DNA of 32,000 nucleotides from Mycoplasmoides genitalium G37 (GTDB lineage Bacteria > Bacillota_I > Bacilli_A > Mycoplasmatales > Mycoplasmoidaceae): NCBI RefSeq assembly GCF_000027325.1, contig NC_000908.2, positions 330,001-362,000 on the forward strand. The letters run 5' to 3'. The first letter of the stretch is position 1. Every line of letters starts with the position of its first letter. Below, one piece after another: positions 8,325 through 30,650 of the stretch. The notes beneath the pieces were generated by a model. That model was not told the origin of the DNA. It saw nothing but the letters and a program-made list of their open reading frames with translations, and did not search any database. Made by a program: the position numbers and the translations under genes.

Positions 8325-8366
8325 TAACTATTTTTAATAACTTAAATTTTATATAAATATTAAGTA

Positions 8367-10529
8367 ATGGCAACCATTCAGGAAATCGAGTGTGATTTTT
8401 TAGCTAAAATAGCACAAAAATTTACTAATGCAGAGATTGAATTAATTAACAAAGCATTCTATCACGCTAAAACTTGGCATGAAAACCAGAAACGGCTTAG
8501 CGGTGAACCTTTTTTTATCCATCCTTTAAGAACGGCATTATCACTAGTTGAATGGAACATGGATCCTATCACTATTTGTGCTGGTTTGTTACATGACATC
8601 ATTGAAGATACAGACCAAACCGAAGCTAATATAGCAATGATTTTTAGCAAAGAAATTGCTGAGCTTGTCACTAAGGTTACAAAGATTACCAATGAATCTA
8701 AAAAGCAACGTCATCTCAAAAATAAAAAGGAGAATCTTAACTTAAAAAGCTTTGTTAACATTGCAATCAATTCTCAACAAGAGATAAATGTAATGGTACT
8801 AAAACTAGCAGATCGACTTGATAACATCGCTTCCATTGAGTTTCTCCCCATTGAAAAGCAAAAGGTAATTGCAAAAGAAACTTTAGAACTTTATGCAAAG
8901 ATTGCTGGGAGGATTGGGATGTATCCTGTTAAAACAAAATTAGCAGATCTTTCATTTAAGGTGTTGGATTTAAAAAACTATGATAACACCCTGTCAAAGA
9001 TTAACAAGCAAAAGGTCTTTTATGACAATGAGTGGGATAACTTCAAACAACAATTAAAAAAAATCTTAGCGCAAAATCAGATAGAATACCAACTTGAAAG
9101 TCGGATTAAAGGCATTTACTCTACATATAAAAAACTAACTGTTCATGAACAGAACATCAGTAAGATCCATGATCTTTTTGCTATCCGCTTAATTACTAAA
9201 TCAGAACTTGATTGTTATCACATCCTTGGTTTAATTCACCTTAATTTTTTAATTGACAGTAAATACTTCAAAGACTATATTGCCTCACCTAAACAAAACC
9301 TTTACCAATCAATTCATACCACTGTTCGTTTAAAAGGGTTAAATGTTGAGATCCAAATTAGAACCCAACAGATGGACAATGTTAGTAAGTTTGGCTTAGC
9401 TAGTCACTGGATCTACAAAGAACAGAAAGAGGGATTGTTAGCACCTGCTTTGCAACTTAATTACCTAGTGACAAAACAAAAACACTCACATGATTTTCTA
9501 AAAAGGATTTTTGGGACTGATATTATCAAGATTAATGTTAGTGCTAGTCATGAACCTAATGTAATTAAGCAAATTAATGTTGATAGCAACAATAAACTCC
9601 TTGATATTGCTTTTGAAAACTATCCCAAGCAATTTGCTAAATTAACCAAAATTGAAATTGATGGGGTTGAGATCAATTCTTTTGATACTAGTGTTGAAAA
9701 TGAGATGCTGATTGAATTTTACTTTGGCAAGAATAACAATTTGAAATCAAAGTGAATTAGGTATATGAATAACCCTATATACCGTGAAAAGGTAAAAAAG
9801 AGCTTGGCTAAACTAGCTAAATCTGGTAGATACAGTGAGTTAGCTTTTTATGAAAAAGAACTGGGTGAAAAACAGTTAAAACTTGCTAGTGAAACTGAAA
9901 TCCAAAAACGCTTAAACACCCTAAGAATTAAAAAAATGAGTGATTACTTAGCGTTAATTGAGTGTACTAACTTTACTAATGATGAACATTTGTTGTTTCT
10001 AGCTAAAAACAACGACAAGTGAAATAAACTAACAAAACCACTTAAGTTTGCTTTTTCAAAAGTAGTTTTTCACAACTCTTACTTTGAACAAATTGAAGGT
10101 ATTTTTATCACCAAAATAGTGATTGAACCATGTTGTAGTAAGATCCCTGATATGCCTGAACAAGTAACTGGTATCTTAACTAAAAACATTTTAAGTGTTC
10201 ACCGTTATGGTTGTAAGAATTTACAAAATAAAAAGCAGTTAAAAATTATCCCGTTATATTGAAATATCCAGCAGTTAAAACTAAAACCACGTAAGTTTCG
10301 CAGTTACATTAACATTAACGGAGTGTGGAGTGAAAAAACCATTAATAAAATCTGTCAAACAATTATTAATGGTGATGGTTATATTGAAAAAATAATTCCC
10401 AAGATCAACAAACAAAAAGATGAATTTGATTTAAACATCACCCTTTTTGTTAATAACTACCAACAACTTCTCACCTTAATGGACCAAATTACCACTAAGA
10501 ATATCAGCTTTAGTTGAAAATACCTTTAG
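8367..10529 (+). CDS. relA: Bifunctional (p)ppGpp synthetase/hydrolase, RelA/SpoT (Rel) family, 720 aa
   Basis: Track ORFs 8367..9755, 9765..10022 and 10323..10517 are in the same frame and joined across TGA. Real TAG at 10527-10529. HD hydrolase motif LLHDIIEDT. Synthetase region GIYSTYKKL...DLFAIRLI...YQSIHTTV. Confidence 0.93.
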
Positions 10530-11182
10530 TTACCAAACACCGCATCATACACTTCTTCATCTCTTAAAAGTAAAACTAAGTGCTTTTTTAGTAGCCGTTG
10601 TGGATTGAAACGTGATACTCTCACTCCATAAACTTTCTTTGTAAATAAAATTAATAAAAAACCAGAAACAAAAAATGCCCCAATAATTGAGATTCCTGTA
10701 TAGAAAAGGATTTGGGAAACTTCAGTTAAATACCGCTTAAAATCATCATTTTGGTTTGGATTTGGGAACTTTTCTAGCATTTGATCAACAAAGCTAGTTA
10801 TGTTATTTAATGTGTGTTTAATTTGGGTAAAAGCAGCATTACTATCAAAGTTATTAATTTTTTTCAATGAACCTTCAAGTGCATTTAAAGAACTATCTAA
10901 TCCTGATGCAAATGAATTGTTTTGCGTTAATTTTCGCCCTTCGTTTAAAGATTTTTCAACTTCTGAAAGTGTTTTAACTAGGTTATTTTGGAAGATATTT
11001 TGGGAGATCTTTTTAATTTCAGTGTTATATTCACTAATCTTGTTATATCCCTCTTTATAGTAGTTGTTAATAGGTTCACGGTAAGTAAAAGCAAAATAAC
11101 CAGCAGTAGCAATTCCACCTAACAATAAAATCCCTACCAAAATAATAAGAAAAACTGCAAGTTTTTTTAATAGTCTAATCAT
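10526..11182 (-). CDS. Membrane protein with an N-terminal TM, a long helical/coiled-coil middle and a C-terminal TM, 218 aa (MG279 by recollection)
   Basis: Track ORF with ATG start and TAA stop. TM1 [27 protein letters not shown]2 [23 protein letters not shown], tail [12 protein letters not shown]. Paralogous architecture to the next gene. Confidence 0.85.
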
Positions 11183-11972
11183 GGTCTAATGCTGTTATCA
11201 CTTCCTCTTCCAAATCAGGATAACGATCTAAGATATCATTAACATGATCAGCTAACTGTTCAGTACTAATAAATCTTGAAAACCTGATCAATCCTCTTTT
11301 TTTAGAAGTTAAAAAGGAAAAGACAATGGTTGTAATCAAAATTGCTAACATCCCACCTGATACAGCAACAATGGTTATCATTGTGACATCATAATAATTA
11401 TTGAACTGTTCAGAAGAAGGGATGTTGTTTTTGATCTTTTCATAGCTACTAACAATGCTTTGTGCTTGTGTAGAAAACTCACTAACTGCACTAATTACAC
11501 CATCAGCTGTTGCTTGTTTTTTTACAGATGGAGATGAACTAGCAGTACCATTTTTATCAAGATTATTTTTAAAGTTGTCTAATTGTGTTTTACTGTTTTC
11601 CAAGTCTTTTTTGGTTGCATCAAGTTCCCTAATCTTTTCTTGACTAATATTACCTAGATTGTTCTGACTCTCTAAGTTCTTTTTGTATTCATCCACTTTT
11701 TGTAAAGATTGCTCTAAGTCTTTTTTAACTTGATCTAAATTGTTAGTAATGGAACTTTTGCTAAATTGGTTAGCACTATTTGCTAAAGCATTAGCAAAGG
11801 CTTTAGCAGAATTGAAAGAACTATCAATGGAATTACGAGCTTGAACATAAAGGTTAGCTGCTGTACTACGAAAATACAAAGCAGTAATACCAAACCCTAA
11901 CAGAAATACAAAAACCAACATTCCAAAGAAAAGCAAGATGGTTTTCGAAAACCGATTAATAAAAATAACCAT
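11175..11972 (-). CDS. Membrane protein, paralog of the downstream gene, 265 aa (MG280 by recollection)
   Basis: Track ORF with ATG start and TAG stop. It overlaps the start of the next gene by 8 nt. TM1 [23 protein letters not shown], coiled-coil middle, TM2 [23 protein letters not shown], tail [13 protein letters not shown]. Confidence 0.85.
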
Positions 11973-12032
11973 TTAAATACTTGTACTTTTAACCAAACTA
12001 ATGGTTATAAAAGTGTTTTGAAAACAAAACTA

Positions 12033-13703
12033 CTAGAGTTTAAGTTTAACACCCAATGCGTTGGTTTTAAGTTCTTTTGCTAGTGATTTAACTTCATTTG
12101 TATCACTGGAAACACCAGTAATATCAACTGTTTCAAACTTTTCTTCACCAATTACAGTAACCAACCCTTCAACTGCTTTAGTCATTCTTTCAAGACTACT
12201 ATCTGTATCATTTTCTAGTTTTTGGAACTGTACACTGTATTTACCACTAGCAGTAATTCTTTTGATGTTTTCATCAAATGTTACTCCGTTTTGTTCAGCA
12301 CGTTTTAAGATTTCATTTTGAAACTCGCTGTCTCTGCTTGCGCGTTCATTTTCATAGATGCTAGCACCAGGGTAATAGTTTTCATTAACCCTGTAATAGG
12401 TGTTATCTCCTTCTCTGTAAGCTTCTTCTAAGTGGAGGTTAAGTTCTTTTAAAGAACGGTACACCAAATCATCATCACTATCCTTGTTGGTATTAACATT
12501 CTTAACTAAGTACTTGTCAATGTATCCCCCAGCAAAATAACCTTGGAACTGTCTTTCAAACCTTCTGTAGTTGTAAATATCACCAACTGCTTGTTTGAGC
12601 TTATTAGCATCAATGGCTGAATTATCACTGTTTTGGAGTGTAACTTGGGTTAAATCAATGTGGGTAAATGGTTTTGAGGCAAACAGATCATAGATAACAT
12701 TAGTTTTACTTCCCAATACTAATGGGTTAAAACCAAAACTATTTGCTTTACTGGTGGAATAAAATTCCAACTCAACTACGTTTGCAAAGATTTGTTTAGC
12801 TACATTAACACCAGTGTAATCACCATAAAGTGAAACTTTTTTAACTGATTCTGGTAATTGCAATTCATTAAGTTGTGAACCATTACCACTTAAACCTCTA
12901 ATAATTAGGTAAGTAGGTTTTTCTGAATCTATTGTTGTTTTTAAAGCACTGATATCTTTAGCATCAATTGCGAGTGTTTTAACATCTTCAAAGAAGTGGT
13001 TTGGGTATGAGTCATAAAGTGGTGAACCTTTAGCAGCAAAATAAGTTCACTTATCATAAGTAAGGTTATTACTAGTTGAAACAGTTGTTGCTTTTGTGTT
13101 ACTCCATCCGCTGAAACTAGGAACTTGTCTAAACACATCATCATAACCACGGTTGTTTGCCATGAGAGTACCGTTAGTTGTTTGCAAGATTGGCATCAAC
13201 ACGCGGTTATTGAAATATTCAGTTGATTGGTAATAGCTAAGCAGTGAACCATCACTAGCAACATGATCATAATAACCAGCTTTAAAACTAGGAGTAATAA
13301 AGTTATCACCTGTTTTAATTAAGCCACTAATTTCAGTTTTAGGAACAGGACGGTCTAAACCCTTTGGACTGTTAGTGATCGCTTCTGATAACTCATTAGC
13401 AAAGTTTCTAAATTTCTCACGGAAGTTAGCACCACCAGATAAATCAATCTCACTCTGATAGCTACCATCGTTTAAAGAAAGTGATTTCAACTTTACTTCT
13501 GCACTAGGAGATTGTGTTGAGAACAACTTAAAACCGAGGTTACCACTCCTACCTGATGCAACCAAAGCATAACCACTTTGATTAACTAGGTTAGTGATCA
13601 TAACTGCTGAGAATGTGGTTAACGCTCCAGCACCTAAAACACCAATAGTCCAAAATAATTTACGCTTAAATTTCACACTATTTTTATGTTTTTTAAATTG
13701 CAT
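12033..13703 (-). CDS. Surface-anchored protein of 556 aa; by position and length the MG281 'Protein M' immunoglobulin-binding protein
   Basis: Track ORFs 12033..12863 and 13047..13703 are in the same frame and joined across TGA. ATG start, TAG stop. N-terminal anchor KLFWTIGVLGAGALTTFSAVMITNLV followed by a large ectodomain. The Protein M identity rests on synteny and my recollection of Grover et al. 2014, not on alignment. Confidence 0.8.
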
Positions 13704-13835
13704 TATTTTTTGTATTATTAGAAACTTTTAATTTGTAAACAGTAGTCTACTTATCAATTTTAAATTAAATCCACTAGTAAACTTCAATAACCCTTTCTCT
13801 GAAAGAGCTTGGTAATTTATTAAACAAATAAAAAA

Positions 13836-13860
13836 CACCCTTAAATTGCTTTAAGGATGT
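13836..13860 (-). terminator. Intrinsic terminator after the greA-tRNA transcription unit
   Basis: On the minus strand CCTTAAA-gcaa-TTTAAGG (plus-strand 13839-13856) is followed by gtgTTTTTTaTTTg. It lies 24 nt downstream of the tRNA-Gly 3' end. Confidence 0.65.
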
Positions 13861-13883: not shown

Positions 13884-13957
13884 TGGAGCGAGTAATCGGA
13901 ATCGAACCGACACGATCAGCTTGGAAGGCTGATGTTCTACCATTAAACTATACTCGC
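13884..13957 (-). tRNA. tRNA-Gly (anticodon UCC), CCA encoded
   Basis: Reverse complement GCGAGTATAGTTTAATGGTAGAACATCAGCCTTCCAAGCTGATCGTGTCGGTTCGATTCCGATTACTCGCTCCA. It folds as a cloverleaf, with anticodon loop CTTCCAA and T-loop GTTCGATTC. Confidence 0.93.
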
Positions 13958-13964
13958 ACAAATT

Positions 13965-14050
13965 TGGTGCCCAAAGCCGGACTTGAACCGGCACACCATT
14001 ACTGGCGTGGGATCTTAAATCCCATGCGTCTACCATTCCGCCACTTGGGC
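13965..14050 (-). tRNA. tRNA-Leu (anticodon UAA), long variable arm, CCA encoded
   Basis: Reverse complement GCCCAAGTGGCGGAATGGTAGACGCATGGGATTTAAGATCCCACGCCAGTAATGGTGTGCCGGTTCAAGTCCGGCTTTGGGCACCA. Anticodon loop TTTAAGA. Confidence 0.92.
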
Positions 14051-14125
14051 TGGTGACCCACCCGAGGATCGAACTCGGGACCCTTTGATTAAAAGTCAAA
14101 TGCTCTACCGCTGAGCTAGTGAGTC
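14051..14125 (-). tRNA. tRNA-Lys (anticodon UUU), CCA encoded
   Basis: Reverse complement GACTCACTAGCTCAGCGGTAGAGCATTTGACTTTTAATCAAAGGGTCCCGAGTTCGATCCTCGGGTGGGTCACCA. Anticodon loop CTTTTAA. It abuts tRNA-Leu with no spacer. Confidence 0.93.
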
Positions 14126-14171
14126 TTTTTGATAGGGAGTTAACCCTATCTTTAGAAATTTAAGCTTTAAC

Positions 14172-14246
14172 TGGCTGGGATGGATGGGATCGAACCATCG
14201 CATGATAGAGTCAAAGTCTATTGCCTTACCGCTTGGCTACATCCCA
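14172..14246 (-). tRNA. tRNA-Gln (anticodon UUG), CCA encoded
   Basis: Reverse complement TGGGATGTAGCCAAGCGGTAAGGCAATAGACTTTGACTCTATCATGCGATGGTTCGATCCCATCCATCCCAGCCA. Anticodon loop CTTTGAC. Confidence 0.9.
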
Positions 14247-14250
14247 AAAA

Positions 14251-14337
14251 TGGTGGACAGGGAGAGATTCGAACTCCCGAAACCATAAAGGTGTCTGATC
14301 TACAGTCAGAAGCGTTTAGCCACTTCGCTACCTGTCC
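14251..14337 (-). tRNA. tRNA-Tyr (anticodon GUA), long variable arm, CCA encoded
   Basis: Reverse complement GGACAGGTAGCGAAGTGGCTAAACGCTTCTGACTGTAGATCAGACACCTTTATGGTTTCGGGAGTTCGAATCTCTCCCTGTCCACCA. Anticodon loop CTGTAGA. Confidence 0.9.
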
Positions 14338-14364
14338 ATTACTACCAGCAAGATATTTTACAAA

Positions 14365-16633: not shown

Positions 16634-16853
16634 CAAAGTACTGTCAATCACTACCCAATAAAACCCTTGATTATTTGGTTTTATTTAATTTATTTCTAAA
16701 TATTTTTTACCAGTAATTTTTGTTTAAAAACAAACTCGTTTTGTAAAAGAAAAAAGTTAGAGTTGTTGTATTTCAATAACGATTATTTAGCCTCTAAAAT
16801 CGATTAGACGATCTTCTGATCGTTTAAGATTTATTCAAATTCAACATGACTTT

Positions 16854-17252
16854 ATGACTTTTACAAACAAAGAAAAAAATTGCAAACAAAGCAAATCATT
16901 AGCAGCGTTGATGACAAAATTTAAGCGCTCGCAATTAATCTTGAAACACCAAGCTAATAACATAGCACTGGAGTTGTGAAATGAAAATGATATTAACCTA
17001 TCAAAACAGCTTATTGAGTTAATAGAAGATACTTTTTCAATGCTTAAAAAAGAAACTGTTGATTTTATCTATGACATCTATATTTATGGCAAAAAGCCGT
17101 GTGATATTGGTTATTCTAATTCCACCTATTACAAAAAACTAAACAAAGCAGCTAATAGTTTTTTTGACCATTTTGTTTGAGATTCGTCAATATTAGACAA
17201 AAGGATCATAACTAATGGCAGCAATTCTCAACGTACAACGAATTCAAAATAA
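16854..17252 (+). CDS. Small protein of 132 aa with a C-terminal helix-turn-helix resembling sigma-70 region 4 or ArpU-type regulators (MG284 by recollection)
   Basis: ATG at 16854 is the first ATG after an in-frame TAG at 16788. Two in-frame TGA. TAA at 17250-17252. HTH-like stretch VDFIYDIYIYGKKPCDIGYSNSTYYKKLNKAANSFF. Invisible in the ORF track because TGA splits it into short pieces. Confidence 0.65.
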
Positions 17253-18258
17253 CCAAGTCACTGAGTACACAATGAGTCCAGTGCGTAATTTTGCAAACAC
17301 AAAAGATGTATATTTTGATGCGCAATTAACAAATATAGAAAGCAAAATTGATAGTAGTAGGGCTCAAATTCACCTTACTATTGCACTAAAATACAACACT
17401 AATCTCCCTGATAATATCTTTCAAGCCCACTTCAGTTTAGGCAATTGACAAAGTGATAAGATTCAACTTCAAAAAGCTCCTGATAAAAAACACGATAGTT
17501 TAAACAGCATTAAATATTTTTATGCATTTCTAGATGTACCCCGTTCAGCACTAGCAAAAAAAGAAATTAATAGGTTTAGTAATGTGGTTGCTAGAGTATT
17601 GAGAATAAGTTTTCGCTTGCAAGATCAATCTGAAAAAGGGAATTGAAGTGACTATCATTTGTTTGATACTGTAGCTAGTGAATTGTATGCAACAGTAATT
17701 AAAGAAACAATCAACTTTGGCAACATGATTAAGATTAATGCACTTGATGGTAGTAAACAGCTAACTAGTAGCCAAGGAAGTTTTAAATACAGTTGAACAA
17801 TGTATGACTATAGGAATTTAGAACAACTTGATGAGGTGAGAAACTTGATCAATATCAGTTTTGACAAACCAGTTCAAATAGTAAATGTTGATGTCAAAAT
17901 TCACTATGTTCCAACTAAAGGTAGGTTACAAGAGATAAAACAACAAGGTGAGTTTGAAAATAACCTTGATGTTAATGAAAAGCTTAAACTCAATTTAATA
18001 GGCAATTGAAATTTTGACAAACATAACAAGAAGCTAATCAGTGATATTTCAGGTACTGGAATCTTTTTACCCCAGGGTGGTTATGGAAGTTATGAAATAA
18101 TGATTGGCGCTACAGTAGGTAATGATTTCTACACAATTATAGCCAACAACCAGTTTAAGTACGAAACACCTTTAGATGATCTTGAACAAAATGACTTTTT
18201 TGAGGTAAATTATTTACCTGTTTACAGTACATACAACTTTAGTGATTTAACTCAGTAA
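17215..18258 (+). CDS. Conserved hypothetical protein, 347 aa, no signal peptide (MG285 by recollection)
   Basis: Track ORFs 17215..17448 and 17800..18009 are in the same frame. The intervening and following segments are interrupted only by TGA. TAA at 18256-18258. The start overlaps the previous gene by 38 nt in a different frame. Confidence 0.75.
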
Positions 18259-18260
18259 GT

Positions 18261-18851
18261 ATGATTTTTTCAATTAGTAAACGAAAGTTAATTTGCGGAT
18301 TTTTGCTAGTTATTTTAACAATAGGTGGGGTTTTGGGTGGTGTTTATTTAGTTACTAAAAACAACAAGGATAACTACCAAAATGAAAGTAATTTCAACAA
18401 TCAAGAACAAATTAGTAAAATCCCTAATTTCAAAGCTATTGGTCCTGAAACACAACGTATCTTAAGAGAAAGAAACTATCCTTTAGATGATAGTGGTTAT
18501 TATGTTTATAAGTATGGTGAAATTAATAGGTATCTAAGAAATGAAAGTGAACTAGATGAATTAATTAACTATAGAGTGATGGTACCTTCACTTAAATTAC
18601 ATCACAAAAGGGTTAATTTTGATAAGGCATTTCTTGAAAGTAAATTAAGAAAATGGATTATCAAAGCAATTAAGCAACATAACTATTTCCAACACTTTGA
18701 AAATGAACCAAATTTAAGAGTTCAATATAACATGAATATTCCAGCACAAAAAATTGATGTTAATGCTGTTTGATCTTATAAAAAAGATAATGATGCTGCT
18801 ACTGGTAAGCCAATCCGATATTGAGATCAATTTGAGCTTAAACTTAAATAA
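18261..18851 (+). CDS. Hypothetical membrane-anchored protein, 196 aa (MG286 by recollection)
   Basis: Track ORF 18261..18773, extended through TGA to TAA at 18849-18851. N-terminal TM LICGFLLVILTIGGVLGGVYLV. The start lies 2 nt after the previous stop. Confidence 0.8.
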
Positions 18852-18882: not shown

Positions 18883-19137
18883 ATGCAAACGCATGAAATT
18901 CTTTTAAAAATTAAAGAAATTGCTAAATCAAAAAACTTTAATCTTAATTTAGATGAAAAGACAATAAATCAACCACTTCGTGAGTTGAAAATCGATTCAC
19001 TTGATATGTTTAGTATTGTTGTTAGTCTAGAAAATGAATTTGGGATTAGTTTTGATGATGAAAAGTTAATGAATCTAAAAAATCTTGCTGACTTGGTTTT
19101 AGAAGTTAAAAACCTTTTAGCAAAAAAAGGGGTATAG
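18883..19137 (+). CDS. acpP: Acyl carrier protein, 84 aa
   Basis: Track ORF. Phosphopantetheine attachment motif LKIDSLDMFSIVVSLENEF (DSL). TAG stop. Confidence 0.9.
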   Translation: MQTHEILLKIKEIAKSKNFNLNLDEKTINQPLRELKIDSLDMFSIVVSLENEFGISFDDEKLMNLKNLADLVLEVKNLLAKKGV

Positions 19138-19202
19138 TTCAAAGGTAGAACATCTGTCTTCAAAATAGAGTGTTGTGGGTTCGAGTCCTGCTACCCCTGC
19201 CA
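19128..19202 (+). tRNA. tRNA-Trp (anticodon UCA, reads UGA/UGG), CCA encoded
   Basis: AGGGGTA TA GTTC AAAGGTA GAAC A TCTGT CTTCAAA ATAGA GTGTT GTGGG TTCGAGT CCTGC TACCCCT G CCA folds as a 75-nt cloverleaf. Its first 10 nt overlap the last codons and the stop of acpP. Confidence 0.9.
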
Positions 19203-19272: not shown

Positions 19273-19674
19273 GTGTTACTAGTGCCTAAGGTGGTATTGG
19301 AGTATCACAACCTGAATAACCAAGTAGTCAAAGAGAGTTTGGAAGTGGAAGCAACTGATTCTTTTGATCCCACCCAAAGGTTGCAAAAAGATAGTCCAAT
19401 GAAGGATACAGGAAAGATGGGGGAGAAACTCCAAGAGACCATGTCATCAATGAGTGGTGGTGGGGCTACATCTCCTCGCAAAGCCCTCACCATTGAGGTG
19501 GAAAGGGGGAGTCAAAGTGATTCACTTTTAAAAAACGACTTTGCCAAAAAGCCACTGAAACATAAGAACAGTAGTGGGGAGGTGAAGTTGGATGCGAGTG
19601 GGGAGTTTACTGAGGCCTGAAAACCATTGTTGACTACTGATCAAATAGCAAGAGAGAAGGGGATGGGGGCGACT
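19273..19674 (+). repeat. MgPar block 1: mgpB-like segment, ending ...REKGMGAT at 19674 and followed by TAG at 19675-19677
   Basis: Track ORF 19273..19620, extended through TGA. The frame (p mod 3 = 1) is closed by TAG at 19675-19677. Confidence 0.8.
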
Positions 19675-19676
19675 TA

Positions 19677-20260
19677 GACTTTCTCCCCTGAATCGGCAAC
19701 AACAAACCCTTCTCCAACTCCCACACTGCTTCCCTTTCTTCTTCTTCTTCTTCCCCACTCCCCACTTTTTCTAACATCAATGTCGGGGTTAAATCAATGA
19801 TCACTCATCTCAACAAAGAAAACACCCGGTGGGTGTTTACCCCTAACTCTTCACCAGACATTTGAACGGGAGCAGGTTATAGAAAAGCTAATAACAACAA
19901 TAACGGCATCTCCTTGACAAGTGTGTTGCCTAGTAGCAATAGTAGTCAACAGTTTAATCCCAATTCAGATGATAATAAAGTCACTCAAGGTGGTGGCTCC
20001 CCAGCCAAAAAAACAACCACCTATTCCTTTTTACCCAATTCCATCAGTCCCACCAGTGACTGGATCAACGCATTGACTTTTACTAACAAAAATAACCCGC
20101 AGCGCAATCAACTGTTGCTCAGAAGCTTACTAGGAACTATCCCGGTATTGATCAATAAGAGTGGAACGGGAGATGAGTTTACCCATACGAGTGAGCAGAA
20201 ATGGGATAAAACGAATGAAAAAGATGGGAATTTACCTGGGTTTGGGGAGGTGAATGGTGG
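19677..20260 (+). repeat. MgPar block 2: mgpB-like segment from a non-adjacent part of mgpB, in a different frame from block 1
   Basis: Frame p mod 3 = 0 reads DFLPWIGNNKPFSNSHTASLSSSSSSPLPTFSNINVGVKSM...GFGEVNGG continuously under code 4. The similarity I recognise ends about 20260. Confidence 0.8.
19737..19751 (+). repeat. (TCT)5 trinucleotide tract encoding poly-Ser inside the mgpB-like block
   Basis: tct tct tct tct tct, read in the block-2 frame. Confidence 0.9.
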
Positions 20261-20406
20261 TTTTTATCAACTAAATAAAAAACTTATTAGCTTATTTTTA
20301 TTAGGTTTTTACTTATTTAATAGTTAAAAAAGTTTTGAATTTTTCTTAGTTTTTTATTTGTTTAATAGTTAAAAAACACTAGGCTTTACCTTTATTTAAT
20401 TAATAA
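20261..20406 (+). repeat. AT-rich spacer between the mgpB-like and mgpC-like parts, containing a 16-nt direct repeat
   Basis: tttaatagttaaaaaa occurs at 20316-20331 and again at 20361-20376. Multiple stops in all frames. Confidence 0.8.
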
Positions 20407-21780
<1,374 letters not shown>

Positions 21781-21790
21781 AGAAATATTT

Positions 21791-23682
21791 TTATGAGTTT
21801 AAAACAAGGTAATGCAGATAACTAGCTAAATCAACAACTGGAGGTTTTGTAGCCCCATTTCTTAAATCCAAATTATGTAAGTTTTGCTGTTTAAGTAAAT
21901 CCATAAATTTACCATCTTGAACTTTTATCTGTTCTTTTACGTGTAAAGTGAAAAGTAGTTGATTGTCTTTAAATTGAAATAGAGAACCTGGATAATCAGT
22001 ATTTTGAACTAAGTTATAATCCAAATCACCATCAACTATGAACTTGACATCCATTTCACCATTTCATGATGAAGGGATACCAGAAAAAGGTGCAAATCAA
22101 CTAAATAACCCAGTTAATTTGTATCCACCTTGGTACTTTATGTCAATTTCAAATTTAAATTTGTATGGATAATGTTGCCTAAATTCAATTCCATTATTTT
22201 TTCAATCAATGGTTGGATTATTTTCCTTGTTTTCAATTTTTATGCTTGTTAAGTTTAGTTTTATGTCAGTATAGGAAGTTAGCTTTCCTCTTAATCAGTC
22301 AGACATATAAAGACCTTCAAGCCCTTGTCTAGGAAACTGAATTCCTTTTTCACTAAAGGCTTTCTTTGCATTTTCACTTTCATCTTTTTTATTATTTTTG
22401 TAATAATCTGACGTTGCTTTAGTAAAGCTATTAATTAAAAGTGAAAAAGTTTTATTTTTATCAGCAGCAAAAGAAGTTTTTAGAGCATCTATTAGTTGAG
22501 TCTTATCAGTAACATCTTTCTTTTGATTTTTTCAATAATCTTTAAATTCTTTAGCATTTTCAAATGATTTATTAAATTGTTCTTGTTGTTCTTTTAAGCG
22601 CTTAGCTTCCTCTTCTTTTCGCTTAAGTTCTTCTTCTTGTTTTCTTCTTTCCTCAGCTAAAATTCGTTGTTGTTCTTCATAATCAGCTTTAGCTTTTTCA
22701 CGTTCTTTTTTGAATGGTTCAATTATTTCTTTTTCAAATTTTGTTTTAGCTAAATCTAGTTGTTCATCAATTTTTAAAACTGAATTAAAGATATTTGTAT
22801 TGGAAAGAAAAAGTGAATCACTTACAGCAGTTTTAGCTATTGAAGTGAGATCATTTTGATTTTTATCAACAAGTTTATTAATTAGAGGTTTTCAAAACAA
22901 TTGGGTATTTAGATCGTTACCATTAAAGCTATTTTGCAACTCTTGTAAATTCAAAAAATTAGAAGTTTGGGCTTTTAAATCAAATTGCAAGTTAACAGTG
23001 TTGTTACCACCTTCATAATCAACTTCAAAATCCATTTTGATTTCAAAGCTATAACGAATCTTATCTTTAATAACAATGTCATTTTTTTAACCAATTCAAG
23101 ATTAAAGTCTTTTAATTGAATTTTCTTTAAGTTGTATTGATTAAATATTTCAACAATACTTTCGGTAATGTTTAAACCTTTTGGATGCAATTGTGGAAAG
23201 AAATTTTCATTAAGGAATTTAAAAAAATTCTGTGGAACTTTAGGCAATTTATCTTCATCATTAATTGGAAAAATTTTGTTAGTTTCATTAATGCTTGATT
23301 ACAGCCTATTTAATAAATCAACTGTTTTTTTAATACCTGATTTAAAACCACTTAAAAGATGAAAAATATCTATAACATTAAAGTTCCTAGGATAAAATTC
23401 ATTCTTAAATTTCTCTTGAAATAAGTCAAAGTTTTTATCATAATCTTTCTCTTTAGCAATATAGTTTTCTTCTTGCTCTGTTATAGCTGTTTGCTGTTGG
23501 AGTAGAATACTATTTTCTCTACTATTTGTTGTACTTGATTTTCTTAGACTAGGTTGACTTAAATTTGCAGCTGAGCCATTATAGATAGAAGGGACAATAA
23601 GTACACCAGCAGTTAAAGTTGATGCAAAAGAGACAAAGAGAAAAGTTTTAATTTTAAAACGAGATTTTTTGATAGCTTTCAA
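21791..23682 (-). pseudogene. Disrupted gene for a signal-anchored coiled-coil protein (probably MG288, of the MG032/MG096/MG288 paralog family). It has an in-frame TAA and a frameshift at an A7 tract. Its largest intact piece is 21791..23035 (414 aa from ATG)
   Basis: Piece A, 23302-23682: TTG start, MKAIKKSRFKIKTFLFVSFASTLTAGVLIV..., ends at a true TAA at 23299-23301. Piece B continues sensibly in the same frame (SSINETNKIFPINDEDKLPKVPQNFFKFLNENFFPQLHPKGLNITESIVEIFNQYNLKKIQLKDFNLELVKK) up to the T7 tract at 23082-23088. Piece C is in another frame. It is closed by TAA at 23087-23089, right at the tract, and is then open to TAA at 21791-21793 with only TGA interruptions. One extra A would join B to C. 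Confidence 0.7.
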
Positions 23683-30593: not shown

Positions 30594-30650
30594 TGCTTAA
30601 TTTTAAATGCAATTTACCAGTGATAAAAATAACTATAGTTCTTTTATTTG

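What the first reader, a model, noticed from the sequence alone, without database searches (positions are those of the whole stretch)
12033..13703. Protein M candidate: a generic immunoglobulin-binding surface protein
A 556-aa protein with one N-terminal membrane anchor and no recognisable enzyme motifs lies between the tRNA cluster and the paralog pair. This is where I recall MG281 lying. MG281 is Protein M, which binds antibody light chains and blocks antigen binding through a fold with no relatives outside mycoplasmas. The gene starts only after the tRNA-operon terminator, so it needs its own promoter in the 122-nt spacer 13704-13825.
Basis: partly seen in the sequence, partly recalled or inferred. 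Interest (0 to 1): 0.7.

Follow-up and report, generated by a model that had tools for sequence, protein, structure and literature searches.

The report
Mycoplasma genitalium Protein M gene (MG281)

Summary
The ORF at 12033-13703 (minus strand) is real. It encodes 556 aa once the single in-frame TGA (codon 219) is read as Trp under genetic code 4. It has one N-terminal hydrophobic anchor and no cysteine. The translation is letter-for-letter the deposited MG281 protein of M. genitalium (AAC71503.1, "IgG-blocking protein M"). Residues 74-468 are 100% identical to the crystallised "Protein M TD" (PDB 4NZR/4NZT, E 5e-264). It scores 782 bits against the NCBIfam equivalog TIGR04525 (cut-off 140). 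It carries all three Pfam Protein M domains. It is 56% identical to M. pneumoniae IbpM/MPN400, in the same gene order. The family is tiny: 21 representatives among 1.84 billion proteins, and every named one is a mollicute.

The terminator hairpin after tRNA-Gly is strong (-12.2 kcal/mol, z -5.2, followed by a U-run). M. pneumoniae has a terminator at the same place. The spacer holds exactly one Pribnow-type hexamer, TAAAAT at 13762-13757, with TTGAAG 19 nt upstream. That match is not statistically compelling, and no mapped 5' end could be retrieved.

Verdict: observation confirmed, interpretation supported, already known, low interest as a discovery.

The parts
12033..13703 (-). Protein M (MG281) coding sequence, 556 codons plus TAG stop (12033-12035)
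   Evidence: ORF; exact match to AAC71503.1; PDB, Pfam, NCBIfam.
13047..13049 (-). In-frame TGA = Trp219 (genetic code 4).
   Evidence: One search shows '*' at this codon. PDB 4NZR has W at the aligned position. A tRNA with anticodon UCA lies at 19128-19202.
13584..13658 (-). N-terminal hydrophobic membrane anchor, about residues 16-40. It follows a Lys/Arg-rich N-terminus and has no lipobox Cys.
   Evidence: the highest Kyte-Doolittle 19-mers start at residues 16-23, and the Cys count is 0.
12300..13484 (-). Residues 74-468, identical to the crystallised Protein M TD construct
   Evidence: 4nzr_M, E 5e-264, every aligned residue identical.
12384..13469 (-). Pfam M_large_dom (residues 79-440), the Ig light-chain-binding core that distant mollicute homologs share
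   Evidence: 747.5 bits. (19 of 19 family members carry it).
12300..12383 (-). Pfam M_smaller_dom (residues 441-468)
   Evidence: 73.4 bits.
12036..12299 (-). Pfam M_C (residues 469-556). This is the C-terminal domain absent from the TD crystal construct and held to cap the antigen-binding site.
   Evidence: 134.9 bits; only the M. genitalium and M. pneumoniae members have it. Function from PMC8593674.
13825..13860 (-). Intrinsic terminator of the tRNA cluster: 11-bp hairpin at 13860..13835 followed by a T-run at 13834..13825
   Evidence: -12.2 kcal/mol, z -5.16, 0 of 200 shuffles fold as well. M. pneumoniae has a terminator at the same position.
13757..13762 (-). Candidate -10 (Pribnow) box TAAAAT, the only TANAAT in the spacer. 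The predicted 5' UTR is about 45-48 nt. Not validated.
   Evidence: The best local alignment with the M. pneumoniae spacer is centred here, but p is about 0.1. About 0.35 matches are expected by chance in the spacer.
13782..13787 (-). Candidate degenerate -35 element TTGAAG (TTGANN type), 19 nt upstream of the TAAAAT
   Evidence: Read. The TTGANN form and the 15-21 nt spacer are described for M. pneumoniae promoters in PMC4402517.
13884..14337 (-). Upstream context: tRNA-Tyr, Gln, Lys, Leu and Gly cluster
10526..11972 (-). Downstream context: MG280 (11175-11972) and MG279 (10526-11182), possibly co-transcribed with MG281
   Evidence: The 60-nt gap 11973-12032 has no terminator-like site and no TANAAT. 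The same order occurs in M. pneumoniae.

Best explanation
The ORF is MG281 of Mycoplasma (Mycoplasmoides) genitalium and encodes Protein M. The protein is held in the membrane by a single N-terminal hydrophobic segment, and the rest is displayed on the cell surface. The large domain (residues about 79-440) binds the variable region of kappa and lambda light chains of IgG, IgA and IgM with very high affinity. The C-terminal domain (469-556) sits over the paratope, so free antibodies can no longer reach their antigen. This is a pre-emptive and generic blockade of antibody, and no protease partner is involved. Shown here: the identity of the gene and protein, the domain architecture, the anchor, the synteny, and the terminator upstream. 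Taken from the literature on this same protein: Ig binding and the blocking mechanism. Inferred: transcription from its own promoter in the 122-nt spacer, with TAAAAT at 13762-13757 as the best candidate, possibly continuing into MG280 and MG279.
For:: residues 73-468 align to PDB 4NZR/4NZT 'Protein M TD', E 5e-264, and residues 74-468 are all identical; the exact 556-aa sequence is AAC71503.1 and ABY79491.1, named 'Uncharacterized protein MG281' and 'IgG-blocking protein M [Mycoplasmoides genitalium]'. TIGR04525 prot_M_MG281 equivalog, 782 bits against a cut-off of 140. M_large_dom, M_smaller_dom and M_C; 56% identity to M. pneumoniae IgG-blocking protein M; the order greA, tRNAs, Protein M, MG280, MG279, relA is conserved; one hydrophobic segment, no Cys, 62.2 kDa, matching the '62-kDa surface protein' in PMC8593674; the mass-spectrometry peptide QVPSFSGWSN202TK reported from AAC71503.1 equals residues 193-204 of this translation, so the protein is expressed. 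Mechanism: PMC8593674, PMC9262362 and PMC7176901. Terminator. Promoter candidate.
Against: Nothing contradicts the identity. For the mechanism, Blotz et al. (PMC7176901) found that removing the C-terminal region of the M. pneumoniae orthologue weakened Ig binding. They argue that this region promotes or stabilises binding rather than only blocking sterically. For the promoter, one TANAAT in 122 nt is close to the chance expectation of about 0.35 at the intergenic density of 2.9 per strand-kb. The spacer similarity to M. pneumoniae is not significant: 49 of 500 shuffles score as well. The generic sigma-70 scan gave no more sites than shuffles do.
Confidence: 0.98

Rival explanations
1. MG281 is transcribed mainly by read-through from the tRNA or greA operon rather than from a promoter of its own. 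The hairpin would then act as a leaky terminator or as a processing site.
For: No statistically compelling promoter lies in the spacer. All genes from greA to MG279 are on the same strand. It is general knowledge, not tested here, that terminators in genome-reduced mycoplasmas are often leaky.
Against: The hairpin is strong for this genome (-12.2 kcal/mol, z -5.16) and is followed by a U-run. A terminator occupies the same position in M. pneumoniae although its sequence is unrelated. Each species keeps exactly one TAAAAT in its spacer.
Confidence: 0.2
2. The protein is the binding half of a MIB-MIP type capture-and-cleave system and works with a dedicated immunoglobulin protease.
For: MIB is a distant homolog of Protein M with the same light-chain binding core (PMC8593674). 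One review speculates that Protein M cooperates with DUF31 proteins in M. genitalium (PMC9262362).
Against: No protease gene is adjacent. The neighbours are tRNAs and MG280/MG279. The protein carries the C-terminal cap domain that MIB lacks. [quoted passage not shown]
Confidence: 0.03
3. The locus is a pseudogene, or two separate genes, interrupted by a stop codon at 13049-13047.
For: Under the standard bacterial code (table 11) the frame is broken by TGA.
Against: The genome uses code 4. A tRNA with anticodon UCA is present at 19128-19202. Many other genes in the window are whole only under table 4. The crystallised protein has Trp at this position. Similarity to IbpM runs uninterrupted across it.
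Confidence: 0.005

Closest known systems
Protein M (MG281) of Mycoplasma genitalium G37; PDB 4NZR/4NZT; NCBIfam TIGR04525
   Same: Everything. The 556-aa sequence is identical to AAC71503.1, and residues 74-468 are identical to the crystallised construct.
   Different: Nothing detected. Other strains differ at about a dozen scattered positions and are at least 99% identical.
IbpM (MPN400) of Mycoplasma pneumoniae
   Same: 56% identity over 98% of the length. It has the same three Pfam domains, an N-terminal anchor, the same gene neighbourhood, and a terminator between tRNA-Gly and the gene. It binds IgG, IgA and IgM.
   Different: It is 582 aa with small insertions. Its upstream spacer is about 240 nt rather than 122 nt and is barely alignable. 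It is also reported to bind fibronectin and plasminogen.
MIB of the MIB-MIP system (for example Mycoplasma mycoides subsp. capri)
   Same: It has a distantly related light-chain-binding core fold and blocks antibody function (PMC8593674).
   Different: MIB has an extra N-terminal arm, lacks the C-terminal cap, also binds antigen-bound antibody, and recruits the protease MIP encoded next to it. None of this applies here.
Distant 'IgG-blocking protein M' homologs of Malacoplasma iowae, Mycoplasmoides alvi and a Ureaplasma MAG
   Same: They share M_large_dom at about 22-25% overall identity.
   Different: They lack recognisable M_smaller_dom and M_C. No function has been tested, as far as the texts read here show.
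Classical bacterial Ig-binding proteins (Protein A, G and L)
   Same: They are surface proteins that bind immunoglobulin outside the normal antigen-specific mode. Protein L also targets light chains.
   Different: No sequence or domain relationship was found. According to PMC8593674, those proteins bind whether or not antigen is bound and do not block antigen-antibody union.

Membership tests
Protein M (IgG-blocking protein M, TIGR04525 equivalog) | Sequence match to the experimentally characterised and crystallised Protein M | tested here: met
   100% identity over residues 74-468 to 4NZR/4NZT, E 5e-264; the full length is identical to AAC71503.1 (MG281).
Protein M (IgG-blocking protein M, TIGR04525 equivalog) | Score above the curated equivalog cut-off | tested here: met
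   782 bits against a cut-off of 140, covering profile positions 1-525 of 526.
Protein M (IgG-blocking protein M, TIGR04525 equivalog) | Three-part architecture: large domain, smaller domain and C-terminal domain | tested here: met
   PF20757 (79-440), PF22805 (441-468) and PF22806 (469-556), all far above their cut-offs.
Protein M (IgG-blocking protein M, TIGR04525 equivalog) | Membrane-anchored surface protein with a single N-terminal transmembrane segment | tested here: met
   the only strongly hydrophobic stretch is at residues about 16-40. The surface orientation itself is inferred. Surface exposure was shown experimentally for the orthologue MPN400.
Protein M (IgG-blocking protein M, TIGR04525 equivalog) | High-affinity binding to kappa and lambda light chains and blockade of antigen binding | not testable with these tools
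   This rests on published work on this same protein (Grover et al. 2014, as summarised in PMC8593674, and PMC9262362). The primary paper is not in the library.
Protein M (IgG-blocking protein M, TIGR04525 equivalog) | Restricted to mollicutes of the Pneumoniae group | tested here: met
   only 21 representatives with E <= 1e-3 among 1.84 billion proteins; the named ones are Malacoplasma iowae, Mycoplasmoides alvi and Ureaplasma sp. The unnamed metagenomic members could not be placed.
MIB-MIP immunoglobulin capture-and-cleave system | Adjacent gene for the MIP serine protease | tested here: not met
   the neighbours are the tRNA cluster and greA on one side and MG280, MG279 and relA on the other. 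No protease domain was found.
MIB-MIP immunoglobulin capture-and-cleave system | MIB architecture: N-terminal arm domain and no C-terminal cap | tested here: not met
   One search shows that the M_C cap domain is present. The MIB features are as described in PMC8593674.
Mycoplasma surface lipoproteins | Lipobox with an invariant Cys after the signal peptide | tested here: not met
   the protein contains no cysteine.

The most novel reading that the evidence does not exclude
MG281, MG280 and MG279 may form one transcription unit driven from the TAAAAT at 13762-13757. The two small membrane proteins, each with an N- and a C-terminal hydrophobic segment flanking a coiled-coil-like middle, would then be functional partners of Protein M, for example in its presentation or anchoring. 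The evidence does not exclude this. There is no terminator or Pribnow match in the 60-nt gap. MG280 and MG279 overlap by 8 nt. The order is conserved in M. pneumoniae. However, two closely related genomes say little, and I could not examine the neighbourhoods of the distant homologs.
Probability: 0.08. Interest if true: 0.4.

Novelty: already known. Interest (0 to 1): 0.08.

Why it matters
Protein M is a remarkable molecule. It is a generic antibody blocker with a mycoplasma-specific fold. It is relevant to chronic M. genitalium infection and to vaccine design, and it is used as a biotechnological reagent; an engineered protM78-420 fusion even turned up in the protein search. All of that has been published since 2014. 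The value of this check is as a positive control: the first-stage reader correctly recalled the gene, its coordinates, the TGA re-joining and the neighbourhood from raw sequence. The only open point it touches is where MG281 transcription starts and whether MG280 and MG279 ride on the same mRNA. That is a small, ordinary question.

Tried and rejected
- Two genome-contig scans, one with the Protein M sequence and one with the M. iowae-type homolog P0019, returned pattern hits but no tblastn-confirmed locus. The organism was therefore identified through exact protein look-up instead.
- The 19-member family alignment was too divergent for the search for related loci.
- A profile search of the word-indexed protein database with that alignment returned only the same three proteins. 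As a result, the gene neighbourhoods of distant homologs, and any linkage to the MG280 family, could not be examined.
- Grover et al. 2014 is not held in the library. The supplementary TSS tables of the M. pneumoniae promoter papers are not held either, so no mapped 5' end for MPN400 could be retrieved.
- A global MAFFT alignment of the two upstream spacers was uninformative. The local alignment is centred on the TAAAAT boxes but is not significant.
- The generic sigma-70 scan gave no more hits than shuffles do. Its one hit near the start, AATAAT ending at 13702, overlaps the ATG and was rejected as a promoter for this gene.
- The weak PDB hits to FtsX periplasmic domains (E about 0.01) and the weak Pfam hits to PB2 cap-binding and PilN were treated as noise.
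- The pseudogene reading under table 11 was rejected.
- Structure prediction and fold search were not run, because the sequence is identical to a solved structure.

Full report
**Observation**

Under the standard bacterial code the minus strand between 12033 and 13703 reads as two ORFs, 13047-13703 and 12033-12863. A straight translation shows one frame of 556 codons interrupted by a single TGA.

The window is a genetic-code-4 genome:
- ARAGORN finds a tRNA with anticodon UCA at 19128-19202, which it labels SeC.
- A table-4 ORF scan makes this and many other split ORFs whole.

ATG 13703 is the first start codon after the in-frame TAA at 13730-13728 (read). The product is 556 aa and 62.2 kDa, and it has no cysteine. 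Its only strongly hydrophobic stretch lies at residues about 16-40, behind a Lys/Arg-rich N-terminus. So it is a signal-anchored protein, not a lipoprotein.

- Five tRNA genes (Tyr, Gln, Lys, Leu, Gly) lie at 13884-14337 on the same strand.
- Two small membrane-protein genes lie downstream at 11175-11972 and 10526-11182.
- Those two genes are only weakly related. BLASTP gives E 2e-5 over 114 residues. The second reaches the Pfam MG280 model at 19.3 bits, below the 27.4-bit cut-off. "Paralog pair" is therefore acceptable but soft.

**Identity**

- Against all PDB chains, residues 73-468 align to chain M of 4NZR/4NZT, "Protein M TD", at E 5e-264. Every residue from 74 to 468 is identical, including Trp at the TGA codon.
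- Pfam finds M_large_dom (79-440, 747 bits), M_smaller_dom (441-468) and M_C (469-556), and nothing else credible.
- NCBIfam's equivalog model TIGR04525 "IgG-blocking protein M" scores 782 bits against a cut-off of 140.
- An exact-sequence look-up finds the 556-aa translation as AAC71503.1 and ABY79491.1. It is named "Uncharacterized protein MG281" and "IgG-blocking protein M [Mycoplasmoides genitalium]", and it occurs on 32 contigs up to 583 kb.

The window is therefore M. genitalium, and the gene is MG281. Fourteen strain variants are at least 99% identical. The M. pneumoniae orthologue (IbpM, MPN400) is 56% identical over 98% of the length. It lies in the same order: greA, five tRNAs, Protein M, MG280, MG279, relA.

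**How it works (literature on this same protein)**

Protein M is a 62-kDa surface protein. It binds the light chains of IgG, IgA and IgM with very high affinity. Its C-terminal domain forms a cap over the antigen-binding site, so it blocks antigen-antibody union. It acts only on free antibody, not on pre-formed immune complexes (PMC8593674; PMC9262362).

IbpM of M. pneumoniae is surface-exposed, binds the same three Ig classes, and is dispensable in culture. Truncating its C-terminal region weakened binding, so the role of the cap may be more than steric (PMC7176901).

For M. genitalium itself:
- MG_281 tolerates transposon insertion, and its transcription is independent of the alternative sigma factor MG428 (PMC4446450).
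- The protein was seen as a differentially phosphorylated spot in a phosphatase mutant (PMC3639085).
- A hexosylated peptide, QVPSFSGWSN202TK, was detected by mass spectrometry (PMC12453214). It matches residues 193-204 of the translation here.

**Family breadth**

An exhaustive phmmer scan of 1.84 billion cluster representatives found only 21 proteins at E <= 1e-3 and 9 at E <= 1e-10. The named ones are "IgG-blocking protein M" of Malacoplasma iowae, Mycoplasmoides alvi and a Ureaplasma MAG.

All 19 full-length members that I aligned carry M_large_dom. Only the M. genitalium and M. pneumoniae proteins carry M_smaller_dom and M_C. In that picture, the MIB proteins of other mollicutes are distant relatives that lack the cap and work with an adjacent protease, MIP. 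No protease gene is adjacent here, so the locus is not a MIB-MIP system.

**Transcription claim**

The terminator is well supported. An 11-bp hairpin at 13860..13835 is followed by TTTTTATTTG. It folds at -12.2 kcal/mol, with z -5.16 and 0 of 200 shuffles folding as well. M. pneumoniae has a terminator of unrelated sequence at the same position after tRNA-Gly.

The spacer 13704-13825 is exactly 122 nt. M. pneumoniae promoters are defined mainly by a TANAAT Pribnow box with a degenerate TTGANN -35 element at 15-21 nt (PMC4402517). The spacer holds exactly one TANAAT on the coding strand: TAAAAT at 13762-13757, 53 nt from the ATG, with TTGAAG at 13787-13782 and a 19-nt gap. The M. pneumoniae spacer also holds exactly one TAAAAT (L001 5874-5879). 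The best local alignment of the two spacers is centred on these boxes.

The statistical support is weak:
- 49 of 500 shuffles score as well as that local alignment.
- At the intergenic density of 2.9 TANAAT per strand-kb, about 0.35 matches are expected in 122 nt.
- The generic sigma-70 scan is uninformative.

The own-promoter idea is therefore reasonable and has one concrete candidate, but it is not demonstrated. Read-through from the tRNA operon remains possible. I could not retrieve any mapped 5' end for MG281 or MPN400.

Downstream, the 60-nt gap before MG280 has no terminator-like site, only weak AT-rich hairpins and no TANAAT. MG280 and MG279 overlap by 8 nt. MG281, MG280 and MG279 may therefore be one operon.

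**Comparison and novelty**

This is not a relative of Protein M. It is Protein M itself, identical to the database and crystal sequences. Every sequence-testable defining feature is met. The biochemical feature, light-chain binding and blockade, rests on published experiments with the same protein. Features of MIB-MIP, lipoproteins and the classical Ig-binding proteins were tested and not met.

The finding is already known. Its only residual open questions are the transcription start and the extent of the operon, and both are minor. The interest score is low, although the protein itself is biologically notable.

Noticed in passing
window 19128-19202 (+): ARAGORN labels this tRNA 'SeC (tca)'. 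In this code-4 genome it is the UGA-decoding tRNA-Trp(UCA). Many ORFs in the window are split under table 11 and whole under table 4.
   Followed up: partly
window 19273-21825 (+): This block has raised G+C (0.38-0.41 against about 0.30 around it) and fragmentary ORFs without proper starts. One ORF (20446-21825) matches Pfam MgpC adhesin at E 4.9e-77. It looks like an MgPa repeat (MgPar) archive used for antigenic variation of the adhesins rather than an expressed gene.
   Followed up: partly
whole window: The Pribnow consensus TANAAT is strongly under-represented: 83 matches against 214 +/- 15 in dinucleotide-preserving shuffles. It is about 2.3 times denser in intergenic than in genic DNA. 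Several matches sit just upstream of gene starts, for example 8346-8351, 14355-14360, 16795-16800 and 30600-30605. Avoidance of in-frame TAA and TAG may explain part of the depletion.
   Followed up: partly
window 10526-11972 (-): MG280 (265 aa) and MG279 (218 aa) each have an N-terminal and a C-terminal hydrophobic segment around a polar, coiled-coil-like middle. They overlap by 8 nt and follow Protein M after a 60-nt gap without a terminator. The arrangement is the same in M. pneumoniae. Their function is unknown, and a link to Protein M is untested.
   Followed up: partly
alignment A3 (Protein M family): Only the M. genitalium and M. pneumoniae proteins have recognisable M_smaller_dom and M_C domains. 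The 17 distant representatives (M. iowae, M. alvi, a Ureaplasma MAG and unnamed metagenomic sequences) have the large domain only. Their C-termini may therefore be different modules.
   Followed up: no
window 16854-18851 (+) and 21791-23035 (-): These are mycoplasma-specific genes of unknown function: an unassigned 132-aa ORF, DUF5443 (347 aa), DUF5452 (196 aa), and a DUF237/DUF240 protein (414 aa) next to the MgPar block.
   Followed up: no
protein search hit P0002: A synthetic construct, 'FLAG-w3-IgA-protM78-420-G4S3-LPETG-His6' in a pET24a cloning vector, is among the closest database hits. This shows that Protein M is already used as an engineered antibody-binding reagent.
   Followed up: no
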